Positions 27,722 to 30,255 of a stretch of DNA of 46,095 bases are shown here, in pieces. How positions within the stretch are numbered: the first letter of the stretch is position 1; each line of letters opens with the position of its first letter. The position numbers and the translations under genes are program-made. The notes below the pieces were generated by a model. The model was not told the origin of the DNA, did not search any database, and saw nothing but the letters and a program-made list of their open reading frames with translations. This DNA comes from a virus (Duplodnaviria > Heunggongvirae > Uroviricota > Caudoviricetes), in the IMG/VR virus record IMGVR_UViG_2565956709_000007; one strand, written 5' to 3'.

Positions 27722-28186
27722 TTATCTGAGGCATTGCTCTCGAATGTATAGCTGTGCCCCTTCAAGTTGTTTTTGCATTATTATCAGTCGCGCTCTGAGG
27801 GTGAAATAATCCCGTTCAGCGGTGTCTGCCAGTCGGGGGGAGGCTGCATTATCCACGCCGGAGGCGGTGGTGGCTTCACGCACTGACTGACAGACTGCTT
27901 TGATGTGCAACCGACGACGACCAGCGGCAACATCATCACGCAGAGCATCATTTTCAGCTTTCGCATCAGCTAACTCCTTCGTGTATTTTGCATCGAGCGC
28001 AGCAACATCACGCTGACGCATCTGCATGTCAGTAATTGCCGCGTTCGCCAGCTTCAGTTCTCTGACATTTTTGTCGCGCTGGGCTTTGTAGGTAATGGCG
28101 TTATCACGGTAATGATTCAGCCCCAGACTAAGCGCACCACAGGCCGCCAGCAGGGCAATGATGACCACGCACAGTACGCGGTTCAT
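27722..28186 (-). CDS. Rz: Spanin inner membrane subunit Rz
   Basis: Product ...[79 protein letters not shown]... near-identical to lambda Rz. Confidence 0.9.
27784..27966 (-). CDS. Rz1: Spanin outer membrane lipoprotein Rz1 (embedded in Rz, +1 frame)
   Basis: 60-aa product [24 protein letters not shown]... with lipobox and Pro-rich tail as in lambda Rz1. Confidence 0.8.
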
Positions 28187-28187
28187 T

Positions 28188-28286
28188 TCACCACCAGCGT
28201 ATCTGACCGATGAAATAACCGGAGGCCATAATCACAAACACCAGCCAGATAAGAATGAACTTCCAGGTGGATAATTTTTCAGCCAT
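28188..28286 (-). CDS. Hypothetical 32-aa single-TM peptide between endolysin and Rz (not in the ORF track)
   Basis: ATG 28286 with GGGAG upstream; translation [32 protein letters not shown]; stop 2 nt before the Rz ATG. Confidence 0.3.
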
Positions 28287-28361
28287 CACTCGAATCTCCC
28301 GAATCAGTTTGCTAAAATCAAACACACTTTCTCCTTTGACTTTTCCGGAGTCAGGAAACAC

Positions 28362-28396
28362 AAAACCCCGCTTGGTGCCAACAAACGGGGTTTTTA
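28362..28396. terminator. Terminator-like hairpin between endolysin and the small ORF/Rz
   Basis: aaaaccccg ... cggggttttt read directly. Confidence 0.4.
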
Positions 28397-28484
28397 CTTT
28401 TATTCACTTACGTTTCGCCTGTTCGCAGGATTTCATGTTATCCGCCCGCGTGGCCATGCCTTATTTTTCAGCAAAATATTCTGC

Positions 28485-29018
28485 TTATCTGTCGATACCC
28501 CAGCACGCCAGCGCGCTCTCCTGGTCACGACGGGATACCTGACCGTAGCAGTTGTTTGAACGAATACGGCAGTCTCTGCCACCGTCCTTAATCCACCAGC
28601 GAATCGCCTCACACGCGCCCCTGCGATCACCTGCATTAATTCGTTTATAAAACGTCGACGGGAAACACTTACTGGGACCAATGTTGTACGGACAGAATGA
28701 CGCGATCCCCGCTTTCTGGGGTTCGCTCAATGGCACTTTGATGTTTTTCTCCACCCATGCCAGCGCCTTATCACGCTCAATGGCGTTGACCTGGTCGCAT
28801 TTTTCCTTCGACAGTTTCATACCGGGAAAAACGGGTTTTCCATCCACCATCGTGGCCCCCCGACAGATGGTCCAGATGCCGGAACCATCGCGGTATGCCG
28901 TTGTGTGGTTACCCTCTTTTTCGTCCAGAAACTGGTCAAGTATCTGAGGAGCAGACGCGCCTGCAGCAATCAGCGCCAGAACAGCAGCTGACAGGGCGTA
29001 TTTGATTTTTGCGCTCAT
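28485..29018 (-). CDS. R: SAR endolysin (phage-21 R-type lysozyme)
   Basis: N-terminal signal-anchor-release segment KYALSAAVLALIAAGASAPQ followed by catalytic region EGNHTTAYRDGSGIWTICRGAT. Confidence 0.85.
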   Translation of the reverse strand: MSAKIKYALSAAVLALIAAGASAPQILDQFLDEKEGNHTTAYRDGSGIWTICRGATMVDGKPVFPGMKLSKEKCDQVNAIERDKALAWVEKNIKVPLSEPQKAGIASFCPYNIGPSKCFPSTFYKRINAGDRRGACEAIRWWIKDGGRDCRIRSNNCYGQVSRRDQESALACWGIDR

Positions 29019-29073: not shown

Positions 29074-29388
29074 CTAACAACCCGTAATCGAGTTATCAGA
29101 ACTGTTAATTTTTATGGTATACCGCGCCTCTGAACAGGGGCGCGTTTCTGGCAACAGCTCGTCCCCTTCACATAACCCGGCAGCAACATCCAGGAAGACC
29201 TGTCTGATGCTCCTTCTGGCTGCTGACTCATAAAACTCCAGCGCGGCACCTTCAACACGGTCCAGCGAGATGTCCAGGTCAAAAATTTCACCGTCAAAGC
29301 GTTTTTTGTCCCGTAACGCTAAAGTTACCGTAACTTTATTCTCAAAATTGCGGATCCCTTTCACAATCAGTTCATATTTTTGAGTCAT
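29074..29388 (-). CDS. YdfR-like (DUF1327-type) protein inserted between holin and endolysin
   Basis: 104-aa ORF at the position occupied by ydfR in the Qin lysis cassette; assignment from memory. Confidence 0.45.
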   Translation of the reverse strand: MTQKYELIVKGIRNFENKVTVTLALRDKKRFDGEIFDLDISLDRVEGAALEFYESAARRSIRQVFLDVAAGLCEGDELLPETRPCSEARYTIKINSSDNSITGC

Positions 29389-29392
29389 TGAA

Positions 29393-29608
29393 TTACTCTC
29401 CCCGTGCAGCCTTACGCTTGTCTTCTTTAATCTTGAAATAAAGGTTTGTCAGGTACGTCAGCAGGCCAAATACCAGGCTACCCAGCACACCTATTGCTGC
29501 CCACTGTGAGGGCGTGACTTTATCGAGCAGCTGTAAAAACCAGTAGCCAGCACTGCCTGCGGAGGTGCCGTAGGCAATGCCTGTTGAAATTTTGTCCATG
29601 GATTTCAT
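29393..29608 (-). CDS. S: Pinholin (S21-type) with dual start motif
   Basis: Product [71 protein letters not shown]; GGAGG upstream; two ATGs three codons apart. Confidence 0.85.
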
Positions 29609-29711
29609 AGCCTCACCTCCGCACGGAACGGATGGCATAGTTATTATGTGTAGGCTTCCAGACACATCAATCAGAGCCATAATTGATATATATGCTGGAG
29701 ACGATGCAATA

Positions 29712-29859: not shown

Positions 29860-30255
29860 CTAACCTCGCATGTCAAAGCCAGATTTCTGAAAATCTCTGT
29901 AGACTTCCGGATTGTTGAAGGCCGGAAATTTGGCTTTATGAGCTGCGGACTTTATCGCTTCGCAATAGGCTTTATCACCGTTACTGGTAGATATTTTTAA
30001 CGCCGTGCCATCCTGAGAGAATTCCATATGCAACCTGCATTTTTTCCCTTTCCAGTTATGCGGCTCATCAAGTTTGGCATTAATTGCAGCTCTGATTCCC
30101 CGCGCTTGCGCCCCCCATTCATCCTGATCATCCCAGCGTCCTGAACTGCAACTACCTGTAGCAGTAGTTTTGTGGCAATCTGAAGGGTGTAAAGGTGTGC
30201 ATCCCGCAACAAAACCGACCCAAAAAGTCAACATAACGATTTTCTTTAATCCCAC
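29860..30255 (-). CDS. Lipoprotein with divergent TolA domain-III-like C-terminal domain
   Basis: GTG start with GAGGAG upstream; signal peptide MGLKKIVMLTFWVGFVAGC (lipobox); C-terminal ...KGKKCRLHMEFSQDGTALKIS..GDKAYCEAIKSAAHKAKFPAFNNPEVYRDFQ paralogous to the next gene. Confidence 0.5.
   Translation of the reverse strand: MGLKKIVMLTFWVGFVAGCTPLHPSDCHKTTATGSCSSGRWDDQDEWGAQARGIRAAINAKLDEPHNWKGKKCRLHMEFSQDGTALKISTSNGDKAYCEAIKSAAHKAKFPAFNNPEVYRDFQKSGFDMRG

What the first reader, a model, noticed from the sequence alone, without database searches (positions are those of the whole stretch)
28188..28396. Untracked 32-aa transmembrane ORF and a terminator-like hairpin inserted between endolysin and Rz
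Lambda and phage-21-type cassettes normally run S-R-Rz/Rz1 contiguously. Here about 300 bp separate R from Rz. They contain a hairpin (28362-28396) and a 32-codon ORF (28188-28286, GGGAG upstream, single predicted TM helix) that stops 2 nt before the Rz ATG. This could be an extra lysis regulator or membrane peptide, or a relic.
Basis: seen in the sequence. Interest (0 to 1): 0.45.

Follow-up and report, generated by a model that had tools for sequence, protein, structure and literature searches.

The report
Portable hairpin plus membrane-peptide gene cassette
The gap between the endolysin and Rz genes of this E. coli prophage holds a conserved 217-bp cassette, a terminator-type hairpin followed by a 45-codon gene for a small membrane peptide, which recurs in the late operons of many enterobacterial phages but whose function has never been studied.

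Summary
R (28485-29018) and Rz (27722-28186), both on the minus strand, are separated by 298 bp that contain the hairpin (28362-28394) and the ORF.

It has 45 codons and starts at GTG 28325, with AAGGAG 5 nt upstream.

It is catalogued only as a hypothetical protein (WP_000459345.1, phrog_6632). There is no Pfam, NCBIfam, PADLOC or PDB match, and I found no paper on it.

Across 235 copies, 233 keep 44-45 codons. pN/pS is 0.34-0.42. The hairpin shows compensatory changes, so this is not a relic.

Hairpin and ORF travel as one unit (28188 to about 28404, 43% GC against 53-54% in the flanks). The unit sits between endolysin and spanin genes of several unrelated types, and also between baseplate genes of myoviruses.

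Most likely it is an accessory late-expressed inner-membrane peptide, perhaps modulating lysis. It is dispensable, because the K-12 DLP12 and Qin cassettes lack it.

Synonymous sites in codons 1-14 are unusually frozen. A conserved promoter-like motif on the opposite strand could explain this, giving an antisense RNA that ends at the hairpin, as in a type I toxin system. A second start at Met14 could also explain it. Neither is tested. Interest is moderate.

The parts
28188..28325 (-). 45-codon CDS (GTG start, TGA stop): [45 protein letters not shown]. It has an amphipathic charged N-terminus (residues 2-19), one transmembrane segment (about residues 22-41) and a 4-5-residue tail. It belongs to family phrog_6632.
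   Evidence: phrog_6632, E=1e-29; the start is GTG or TTG in 37/37 distinct CDS; codon position 2 is almost invariant; pN/pS is 0.34 for codons 2-13 and 0.42 for codons 15-43; hydropathy.
28188..28286 (-). It is the part of the 45-codon CDS from the invariant internal Met14. It may be a second translation start.
   Evidence: ATG is invariant in 37/37. Some gene callers pick this start (P0026, P0027).
28331..28336 (-). Shine-Dalgarno AAGGAG, 5 nt upstream of GTG 28325.
   Evidence: An SD-like purine run 5-6 nt before the start is kept in every lineage although the surrounding sequence differs.
28296..28300 (-). GGGAG (codons 9-10 of the CDS), 9 nt upstream of Met14. It may be an internal Shine-Dalgarno.
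   Evidence: The GG of codon 9 is kept in 36/37 distinct CDS and the GAG of codon 10 in all 37.
28330..28358 (-). Predicted weak second stem-loop in which the U/C tract after the hairpin (UUUCCU) pairs with the Shine-Dalgarno (AGGAGA).
   Evidence: The SD is 4-5 of 5 nt paired in most lineages, at -7 to -11 kcal/mol. This is prediction only.
28362..28394 (.). Intrinsic-terminator-type hairpin with an A-tract 5' and a U-tract 3', so terminator-like on both strands.
   Evidence: -18.9 kcal/mol on the minus strand, -15.8 on the plus strand; 13 pairs, 6 with compensatory changes, 0/500 shuffles.
28395..28404 (-). A-rich left edge of the cassette (ATAAAAGTAAAAA). Homology with copies in other genomic contexts starts here.
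   Evidence: alignment A5.
28290..28318 (+). Candidate antisense promoter on the plus strand: TCGAAT, 17 nt, TAAAAT with an upstream TG (TGCTAAAAT, 28310-28318). A transcript from it would start near 28324-28326 and end at the hairpin (about 28400). The predicted RNA is about 75-80 nt and complementary to the SD and GTG.
   Evidence: codons 3-6 are frozen at synonymous sites; it is the best antisense-strand hit, at the same position, in 61/61 distinct cassettes, but the score of 8.7-12 bits is unexceptional against shuffles. This is a hypothesis.
28405..28484 (-). R-proximal linker. It is not part of the portable cassette. It is shared with lambdoid relatives that carry other inserts.
28485..29018 (-). 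Endolysin R (phage lysozyme, R21-type, with an Ala/Gly-rich N-terminal signal-anchor-like segment).
   Evidence: PF00959, E=5e-24.
27722..28186 (-). Rz (i-spanin). Its ATG lies 1 nt after the stop of the small CDS.
   Evidence: PF03245, E=1e-52.
27784..27966 (-). Rz1 (o-spanin lipoprotein), embedded in Rz.
   Evidence: PF06085, E=5e-20.
29393..29608 (-). S21-type holin (pinholin family).
   Evidence: PF04971, E=9e-36.

Best explanation
Window 28188 to about 28404 (minus strand) is one discrete, horizontally mobile cassette embedded in the Q-dependent late operon. It has three parts:
1. An intrinsic-terminator-type hairpin.
2. A short leader whose Shine-Dalgarno is predicted to be partly occluded.
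3. A 45-codon GTG-initiated gene. Its stop abuts the next gene's start.

The gene encodes a single-pass inner-membrane peptide. The conserved amphipathic N-terminal helix would lie in the cytoplasm and only 4-5 residues outside.

Shown:
- The gene is real and under purifying selection.
- The hairpin is selected as a structure.
- The two always occur together.
- The unit is accessory and compositionally foreign.

Inferred:
- In the lysogen the hairpin stops stray read-through.
- After induction, Q-modified RNA polymerase reads through it, and the peptide is made together with S, R and Rz/Rz1.
- The peptide acts in the inner membrane as a non-essential modulator of the late membrane or lysis stage. 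That stage includes pinholin triggering, release of the membrane-tethered endolysin and spanin activation.
- The next gene (Rz) is translated by ribosomes that terminate 1 nt upstream.
For: Gene:
- The start is GTG or TTG in 37/37 distinct CDS.
- Summed entropy at codon position 2 is 0.48, against 4.9 at position 1 and 4.6 at position 3, for codons 2-13.
- Synonymous pairs occur: CGG/AGG and CTG/CTA/TTA.
- pN/pS is 0.34 for codons 2-13 and 0.42 for codons 15-43.
- 233/235 copies keep 44-45 codons.
- phrog_6632 matches at E=1e-29.
- PGAP calls the 45-aa form.

Membrane character: hydropathy 2.13 and N-terminal hydrophobic moment 0.49.

Hairpin. G-U wobbles occur mostly on the gene's own strand (16 cells against 3), as counted from the pair tables.

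Unit:
- The hairpin lies 33-40 nt before the start in every lineage and context.
- Homology with the baseplate-context copies runs from just 5' of the hairpin to the stop codon and ends there.

Accessory and foreign: DLP12 and Qin lack it. GC is 43% against 53-54%.

Late-operon setting: a Q antiterminator and the S-R-Rz-terminase order are seen in an identical prophage.

Lysis association: the cassette sits between R21-type lysozyme and Rz, between a GH19-type endolysin and other spanin-like genes, and between a third endolysin type and Rz.

Coupling: the next ORF starts 1-8 nt after the stop in nearly all copies.
Against: - No experiment or paper bears on function.
- No functional family matches in Pfam, NCBIfam, PADLOC or PDB.
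- Fourteen copies lie between baseplate genes, not in lysis cassettes. The lysis role therefore rests only on position.
- A terminator inside baseplate operons, which are not known to be antiterminated, is awkward for the insulator idea.
- The strong freezing of synonymous sites in codons 1-14 (pS 0.24 against 0.72) is not explained by this account alone.
Confidence: 0.55

Rival explanations
1. Antisense-controlled cassette, like a type I toxin-antitoxin system. The hairpin also serves as terminator of a roughly 75-80-nt RNA transcribed from the plus strand. Its promoter would be an extended -10 (TGCTAAAAT, 28310-28318) inside codons 3-6 of the peptide gene. The RNA would be complementary to the peptide's Shine-Dalgarno and GTG, and would keep a potentially toxic membrane peptide silent. 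It might also act on host mRNAs.
For: - Third positions of codons 3-5 are invariant in 37 distinct CDS, and each falls on a key base of the motif.
- The motif is the best antisense-strand promoter hit, at the same position, in 61/61 distinct cassettes.
- The F4I variant gives TAATAT, which still fits a -10.
- The hairpin has a U-tract on the plus strand too (TTTTTACTTTTATT) and folds at -15.8 kcal/mol.
- The predicted RNA has a 5' stem-loop plus a terminator.
- The peptide's Shine-Dalgarno is predicted to be occluded, as in inert type I toxin transcripts.
- The peptide is small and hydrophobic.
Against: - The promoter score (8.7-12 bits) lies between the median and about the 90th percentile of shuffled sequences, and the -35 matches only 3 of 6.
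- The built-in promoter scan did not report it.
- G-U wobbles favour folding of the sense strand.
- The cassette has no promoter of its own for the peptide mRNA.
- No Rfam family matches. The only hit is a weak rimP-leader match, E=0.41.
- The Hfq-bound sRNA catalogue for E. coli O157 Sakai cannot test this, because Sakai carries other inserts at this junction.
Confidence: 0.25
2. Dual-start gene. Both GTG 28325 (45 aa) and ATG 28286 (32 aa) would be used, giving two isoforms with different activity, as in holin/antiholin pairs. This does not exclude the other explanations.
For: - Met14 is invariant, and GGGAG lies 9 nt upstream in essentially all copies.
- The first Shine-Dalgarno is predicted to be paired, while the region before Met14 is mostly unpaired.
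- Two overlapping initiation regions would account for much of the frozen synonymous sites in codons 1-14.
Against: - Met and Arg-Glu can be conserved for protein reasons.
- The long fold pairs the internal GGGAG as well.
- No expression data exist.
- The peptide lacks the charged C-terminal domain typical of holins.
Confidence: 0.2
3. A lysogenic-conversion or superinfection-exclusion moron. The peptide would be a membrane protein made in the lysogen that blocks DNA entry of other phages, like HK97 gp15.
For: - It is a small membrane peptide that is accessory, AT-richer than its flanks, and found in tail/baseplate operons as well as lysis cassettes.
Against: - It has no promoter of its own.
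- A terminator-type hairpin lies directly upstream, and the gene is tightly joined to the next late gene. Expression in the lysogen is therefore unlikely.
- PADLOC has no match.
Confidence: 0.1
4. A decaying relic or chance ORF next to the endolysin's own terminator.
For: - ORFs of this size and terminator-like hairpins are common by chance.
- Many annotations omit the ORF.
Against: - Length is preserved in 233/235 copies.
- Purifying selection and codon periodicity are clear.
- The hairpin covaries.
- The hairpin accompanies the ORF in contexts that have no endolysin.
Confidence: 0.03

Closest known systems
Morons of lambdoid phages (Juhala et al. 2000, as cited in PMC4104026). Examples recalled from my own knowledge: HK97 gp15, lambda bor and lom.
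   Same: It is extra DNA between two conserved late genes, present in some relatives and absent in others. Its base composition differs from the flanks. It is a single small accessory gene with an associated hairpin.
   Different: A classical moron has its own promoter upstream and a terminator downstream, and is expressed in the lysogen. Here the hairpin is upstream, no promoter for the gene is found, and the stop codon abuts the next late gene.
Type I toxin-antitoxin loci (hok/sok, tisB/istR, zorO/orzO, ibs/sib). Recalled from my own knowledge.
   Same: It encodes a hydrophobic single-helix peptide of no more than 50 aa. The ribosome-binding site is predicted to be occluded. A conserved promoter-like motif and a terminator are placed so as to give a short antisense RNA over the translation start. 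It resides in a prophage.
   Different: It has no autonomous toxin promoter. The antisense RNA is only predicted. Toxicity is unknown. There is no sequence similarity to any known toxin family.
Accessory lysis regulators that are small membrane proteins: the S21-71 and S107 antiholins, T4 RI/RIII, Mu releasin gp25 (Chamblee et al. 2022). Recalled from my own knowledge.
   Same: It is a small membrane protein encoded inside a lysis cassette next to a membrane-tethered (signal-anchor-release) endolysin. It is dispensable in related cassettes. It may have a dual start.
   Different: No homology was detected. The periplasmic part is only 4-5 residues. The same cassette also occurs outside lysis cassettes.
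phrog_6632 / RefSeq WP_000459345.1 / CP-1639 CAH23245.1 'putative bacteriophage protein'
   Same: The same protein family. The profile matches full length at E=1e-29.
   Different: These entries give only 'unknown function' or 'hypothetical protein'. They say nothing about the hairpin, the cassette nature or the frozen 5' codons.

Membership tests
phrog_6632 (phage protein family of unknown function) | Full-length match to the family profile | tested here: met
   E=1.2e-29, residues 1-45 against profile positions 1-45.
Intrinsic (Rho-independent) terminator | G+C-rich stem-loop immediately followed by a U-run | tested here: met
   (13 pairs, then GTGTTTCC, preceded by UUUU within the stem end). 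(-18.9 kcal/mol, z = -3.3). Covariation. Termination activity itself was not tested.
Moron | Extra DNA between neighbours that are adjacent in related phages | tested here: met
   In K-12 DLP12 and Qin, R overlaps Rz. Other inserts occupy the same junction in Sakai Sp10 and Sp15.
Moron | Own promoter upstream of the gene | tested here: not met
   No consistent sense-strand promoter was found in the cassette.
Moron | Own terminator downstream of the gene | tested here: not met
   The stop codon is 1 nt from the Rz ATG. The hairpin lies upstream of the gene.
Moron | Base composition different from the flanks | tested here: met
   43% GC against 54% in R and 53% in Rz.
Type I toxin-antitoxin | Small hydrophobic peptide (under about 60 aa) with one transmembrane helix | tested here: met
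   45 aa; hydropathy maximum 2.13.
Type I toxin-antitoxin | Antisense RNA that overlaps or pairs with the toxin mRNA | tested here: inconclusive
   A conserved extended -10-like motif and a two-way terminator are present. The promoter score is unexceptional and no expression data exist.
Type I toxin-antitoxin | Toxicity of the peptide when over-expressed | not testable with these tools
   This needs an expression experiment.
Holin / antiholin | Match to a holin family, or a transmembrane domain plus a highly charged hydrophilic C-terminal domain | tested here: not met
   No Pfam hit. The C-terminal tail is only QIRWW.
Holin / antiholin | Dual-start motif that yields two isoforms | tested here: inconclusive
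   GTG and the invariant Met14 each have an upstream SD-like element. Usage is unknown.
Spanin (i-, o- or u-spanin) | A periplasmic domain long enough to reach the outer membrane, or a lipoprotein signal | tested here: not met
   Only 4-5 residues follow the transmembrane segment, and there is no lipobox. Rz and Rz1 are present separately.
Anti-sRNAs AgvB / AsxR of EHEC prophages | Sequence family and position 3' of PR', between Q and S | tested here: not met
   The sequences in the supplement of PMC4104026 are unrelated, and they map between Q and S.

The most novel reading that the evidence does not exclude
The cassette is a self-contained regulatory module of a kind not yet described in phage late operons. 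It would combine a membrane peptide with a short antisense RNA, where the antisense promoter is written into the peptide's first codons and the terminator is the upstream hairpin. This would resemble a type I toxin system that has lost its own promoter and rides on late transcription. Together with the tandem small membrane-peptide genes seen at the same endolysin-Rz junction in other E. coli prophages, it would define a new class of lysis-timing or membrane-integrity regulators in Shiga-toxin-type and related phages.
Probability: 0.2. Interest if true: 0.65.

Novelty: new member of a known kind. Interest (0 to 1): 0.42.

Why it matters
Related DNA is present in 2061 of 5426 complete E. coli genomes. 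It is also in H-19B and in many Stx1, Stx2a and Stx2c phages, inside the cassette that decides when the cell bursts and releases phage and toxin.

A conserved, never-studied membrane peptide at that position is a cheap and direct target for genetics. It could add a component to the well-studied pinholin / membrane-tethered-endolysin / spanin pathway.

The cassette is also a clean example of how a small gene, together with its flanking RNA structure, is exchanged between unrelated late operons. If the antisense RNA exists, it would be a case of a promoter embedded in the coding sequence it regulates.

If the peptide has no phenotype, this is just one more small accessory phage gene.

Tried and rejected
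- **Rfam, permissive threshold.** The only hit is a weak rimP-leader match (24.7 bits against a gathering score of 47, E=0.41). It is explained by the terminator-like hairpin.
- **AgvB/AsxR anti-sRNAs.** I considered these because the plus-strand sequence is CA-rich. They map between Q and S and their sequences are unrelated.
- **Hfq-CRAC sRNA table of E. coli O157 Sakai.** EcOnc11, 12 and 10 looked promising, but in Sp10 EcOnc11 lies downstream of Rz. Sakai Sp10 and Sp15 carry an antirepressor gene plus a 48-aa ORF instead of this cassette. Sp4 is disrupted. The dataset therefore cannot test the antisense idea.
- **Plus-strand 95-aa ORF 28255-28542.** It is annotated in CP-1639. I rejected it because its 5' part lies in DNA that is not conserved across contexts.
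- **A 17-codon ORF in the R-proximal linker.** It is interrupted in Sakai Sp10.
- **A sense-strand promoter inside the cassette.** None is consistent across lineages.
- **Pfam, NCBIfam, PADLOC and PDB sequence searches.** No matches.
- **Profile search of 5.8 billion proteins.** It returned only 'hypothetical' or 'phage protein' entries from Enterobacterales.
- **Literature searches.** Searches by topic, peptide strings and accessions found nothing relevant.
- **Structure prediction.** Not run. A 45-residue helix-kink-helix would not discriminate between the hypotheses.

Full report
**1. What is in the sequence**

The lysis cassette lies on the minus strand. It contains, in order of transcription:
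- an S21-type holin (29393-29608, PF04971);
- a DUF1327/YdfR-like gene (29074-29388);
- a phage lysozyme R with an Ala/Gly-rich N-terminal segment (28485-29018, PF00959);
- a 298-bp gap;
- Rz (27722-28186, PF03245), with Rz1 embedded (27784-27966, PF06085).

- The 32-codon ORF 28188-28286 is there, with GGGAG 9 nt before its ATG.
- Its TGA is followed by one base and then the Rz ATG.
- The hairpin has its stem at 28394->28362, with 13 pairs and a 7-nt loop. It folds at -18.9 kcal/mol, z = -3.3.

Taken alone, neither feature exceeds chance. There are 57 ORFs of at least 20 aa in 3.5 kb. There are 3 terminator-like sites against 2.7 expected. The case rests on comparison with other sequences.

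**2. The gene is real, and longer than 32 codons**

Related DNA occurs in 2061 of 5426 complete E. coli genomes. In 871 of them it covers at least 80% of the query. It is also in H-19B, CP-1639, TL-2011c and many Stx1a, Stx2a and Stx2c phages at about 94% identity.

Some records annotate a 45-aa protein that starts at the GTG corresponding to window 28325:
- WP_000459345.1;
- CAH23245.1 in CP-1639;
- SEN34_23;
- rac58 in Rac-SA53.

The peptide matches phrog_6632, a family of unknown function, over its full length at E=1e-29. Pfam, NCBIfam, PADLOC and PDB give nothing.

Scans of genome, viral and metagenome contigs gave 235 copies, with 37 distinct full coding sequences and 30 distinct peptides. 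The hosts are Escherichia, Salmonella, Citrobacter, Yersinia, Pantoea, Brenneria, Sodalis, Providencia and Trabulsiella. The protein search adds Enterobacter, Klebsiella and Cronobacter.

The evidence that this frame is translated:
- 233 of 235 copies have 44 or 45 codons.
- The start is GTG in 32 and TTG in 5 of the 37 distinct sequences.
- A purine-rich Shine-Dalgarno lies 5-6 nt upstream in every lineage, although the surrounding sequence differs.
Summed entropy is 4.9 at position 1, 0.48 at position 2 and 4.6 at position 3.
- Clear synonymous pairs occur there: CGG/AGG, CTG/CTA/TTA and ATT/ATA.
- pN/pS is 0.34 for codons 2-13 and 0.42 for codons 15-43.

The supported gene is therefore 28325->28188.

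The product has three parts:
- an amphipathic, charged N-terminal helix (residues 2-19, hydrophobic moment 0.49);
- a Pro/Ser-Asn break and a conserved Trp-Lys-Phe;
- one transmembrane segment (hydropathy maximum 2.13) followed by a 4-5-residue tail.

From the charge distribution I infer that the N-terminus is cytoplasmic.

**3. Hairpin and gene are one portable unit**

In every lineage the hairpin lies 33-40 nt upstream of the start codon.

An alignment of 30 distinct hairpins gives 13 pairs. Six of them show compensatory changes. Overall 96.4% of cells are paired, 27 cells show a change on both sides, and none of 500 shuffles reaches these values. Sliding the partner column collapses pairing to 44-64%.

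G-U wobbles are mostly on the gene's strand: 16 cells, against 3 that would be wobbles on the other strand, by my count. This suggests the structure is selected at least in the mRNA. A-tracts 5' and U-tracts 3' make it terminator-like in both directions.

The genomic contexts differ:
- R21-type lysozyme -> Rz: about 180 copies, from E. coli and from Salmonella phages SPN3UB and FSL SP-016.
- GH19-type endolysin -> other spanin-like genes: Citrobacter and metagenome contigs.
- A third endolysin type -> Rz: locus L103.
- Baseplate V-like -> W-like genes: 14 copies, in SEN34, Rac-SA53, an Actinobacillus phage record, Yersinia and Pantoea.
- A few others, including after a tail fibre gene in Sodalis, and in Brenneria.

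A near-identical allele (87-91% at the protein level) sits in the baseplate context of Rac-SA53 and Yersinia. Aligned to the window, its homology begins at the A-rich run just 5' of the hairpin (window about 28404) and stops exactly at the stop codon, 28188.

The cassette is AT-richer than its neighbours: 43% GC, against 54% for R and 53% for Rz. It is absent from K-12 DLP12 and Qin, where R overlaps Rz.

In nearly all copies the next ORF starts 1-8 nt after the stop. The insertion therefore preserves a tight, probably translationally coupled, junction with the downstream late gene.

**4. An unexplained layer: frozen synonymous sites in codons 1-14**

Synonymous divergence is 0.24 in codons 2-13 against 0.72 in codons 15-43. 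GAT TTT AGC AAA (codons 3-6), GAG (codon 10), CGA (codon 12) and ATG (codon 14) never change, except for two nonsynonymous variants at first positions. I considered two explanations, which do not exclude each other.

(a) *A promoter on the opposite strand.*
- The reverse complement of codons 3-6 reads TGCTAAAAT, an extended -10 (window plus strand 28310-28318). TCGAAT or TCGCAA lies 17 nt upstream of its TAAAAT hexamer.
- A transcript from it would start at about the GTG, run through the anti-Shine-Dalgarno and end at the hairpin. That gives an RNA of about 75-80 nt with a 5' stem-loop and a terminator.
- The site is the best antisense-strand hit, at the same place, in 61 of 61 distinct cassettes.
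- Its score (8.7-12 bits) is only between the median and about the 90th percentile of shuffles. The argument therefore rests on conservation, not on strength.

(b) *Two overlapping translation-initiation regions.*
- One would serve GTG. Its Shine-Dalgarno is predicted to pair with the UUUCCU tract behind the hairpin in most lineages.
- The other would serve Met14, with GGGAG 9 nt upstream.

I could find no expression data. The Hfq-bound sRNA catalogue of E. coli O157 Sakai does not help, because Sakai has other inserts at this junction.

**5. How it most likely works**

Shown: the cassette is a conserved, accessory, compositionally foreign unit consisting of a selected hairpin plus a selected membrane-peptide gene, embedded in late operons.

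Inferred:
- In this prophage the late operon is driven by a Q antiterminator. An identical prophage shows Q, tRNA genes, TolA-like genes, then S, DUF1327, R, the cassette, Rz and terminase.
- Without Q, the hairpin would stop read-through into the peptide gene and Rz/Rz1.
- With Q-modified polymerase it is read through, so the peptide appears together with holin, endolysin and spanins.
- The peptide inserts into the inner membrane, and its conserved cytoplasmic helix is the likely interaction surface.

Because the unit recurs between endolysin and spanin genes of unrelated families, I favour a non-essential modulator of the late membrane or lysis stage. I put that specific role at about 0.35-0.4. 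I put the overall description at 0.55.

The baseplate-context copies are also in late operons. They do not contradict a cell-wide late function, but they remove the positional argument for those phages.

Rivals, with my confidence in each:
- an antisense-controlled, type I toxin-like module (0.25);
- dual-start isoforms (0.2, compatible with the others);
- an exclusion or conversion moron (0.1; disfavoured because there is no promoter and a terminator lies upstream);
- a relic (0.03; contradicted by the conservation data).

**6. Comparison with known systems**

It resembles a moron in being extra, AT-richer, accessory DNA. It fails two defining features: it has no promoter of its own and no downstream terminator.

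It resembles type I toxin loci in peptide size, hydrophobicity, an occluded ribosome-binding site and a possible antisense RNA. It has no autonomous promoter, and the antisense RNA and toxicity are untested.

It resembles small lysis regulators (antiholins, Mu releasin) only in position and size.

It is a member of phrog_6632, which carries no functional information. Searches of the paper library by topic, peptide strings and accessions found nothing.

**7. Verdict**

The gene family is already catalogued as hypothetical. The new points are the cassette structure, its mobility between late-operon junctions, and the frozen 5' codons with a possible embedded antisense promoter.

Novelty: a new member of a known kind, namely small accessory phage membrane-protein genes. 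Interest is moderate (0.42). The cassette is very common in E. coli and in Stx phages and is easy to test, but no mechanism has yet been demonstrated.

Noticed in passing
L096:1895-2380 (Escherichia phage vB_EcoS-783R2); the same allele occurs in about 110 of the 235 loci: The commonest E. coli variant has four tandem small single-helix ORFs between R and Rz: 44 aa (phrog_6632), 43 aa (phrog_4906), 38 aa (phrog_1115/3246/4493) and about 33 aa. The third and fourth look paralogous. The last ends ...AIRWW-TGA-T-ATG(Rz), like the window's ORF. All these families have unknown function.
   Followed up: partly
L239:4286-5278 (E. coli O157 Sakai Sp10); L241:749-1734 (Sp15): At the same R-Rz junction Sakai carries a different insert: an antirepressor gene plus a 48-aa membrane ORF (phrog_4906). 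The insert begins right after the shared linker ...GTGAATAAAGT and also opens with a hairpin followed by a T-rich run. The junction looks like an exchange point for cassettes.
   Followed up: partly
window 28405-28484 (-): The 80-bp linker after the R stop (including CCACGCGGGCGGATAACA) is conserved between E. coli and Salmonella lambdoid phages and is kept whatever insert follows it. Its function is unknown. No promoter or conserved ORF was found in it.
   Followed up: partly
window 29074-29388 (-): A DUF1327/YdfR-like gene (104 aa) sits between holin and endolysin, as ydfR does in K-12 Qin. It is another uncharacterised member of this cassette type (PF07041, E=1e-38). A terminator-like hairpin overlaps its 3' end at 29099-29074.
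   Followed up: no
window 29860-30255 (-): An ORF with a lipoprotein-like signal (…FVAGC) is annotated in identical prophages as a TolA C-terminal-domain protein. It lies in the Q-to-S region upstream of the holin, next to a truncated tolA-like pseudogene in those records.
   Followed up: no
L097 (Actinobacillus phage vB_Apl-pPE4) against L098 (Escherichia phage Rac-SA53): The two records have the same gene order and coordinates over the first 3 kb of the region fetched, and the same peptide, although they are assigned to hosts from different bacterial orders. The host assignment of one record may be wrong, or the transfer is very recent.
   Followed up: no
window 29393-29680 (-): The holin reading frame is open for 95 codons from an upstream ATG. 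The S21 family match covers the last 71 codons, which begin MKSMDK. This is the Met1...Met4 arrangement known as the S21 dual-start motif.
   Followed up: no
L242:2118-2273 (E. coli strain 53; prophage identical to the window over the 351 bp queried): The same prophage carries an annotated type I toxin gene, hokD, upstream of the Q region. I did not check whether it lies inside the window.
   Followed up: no
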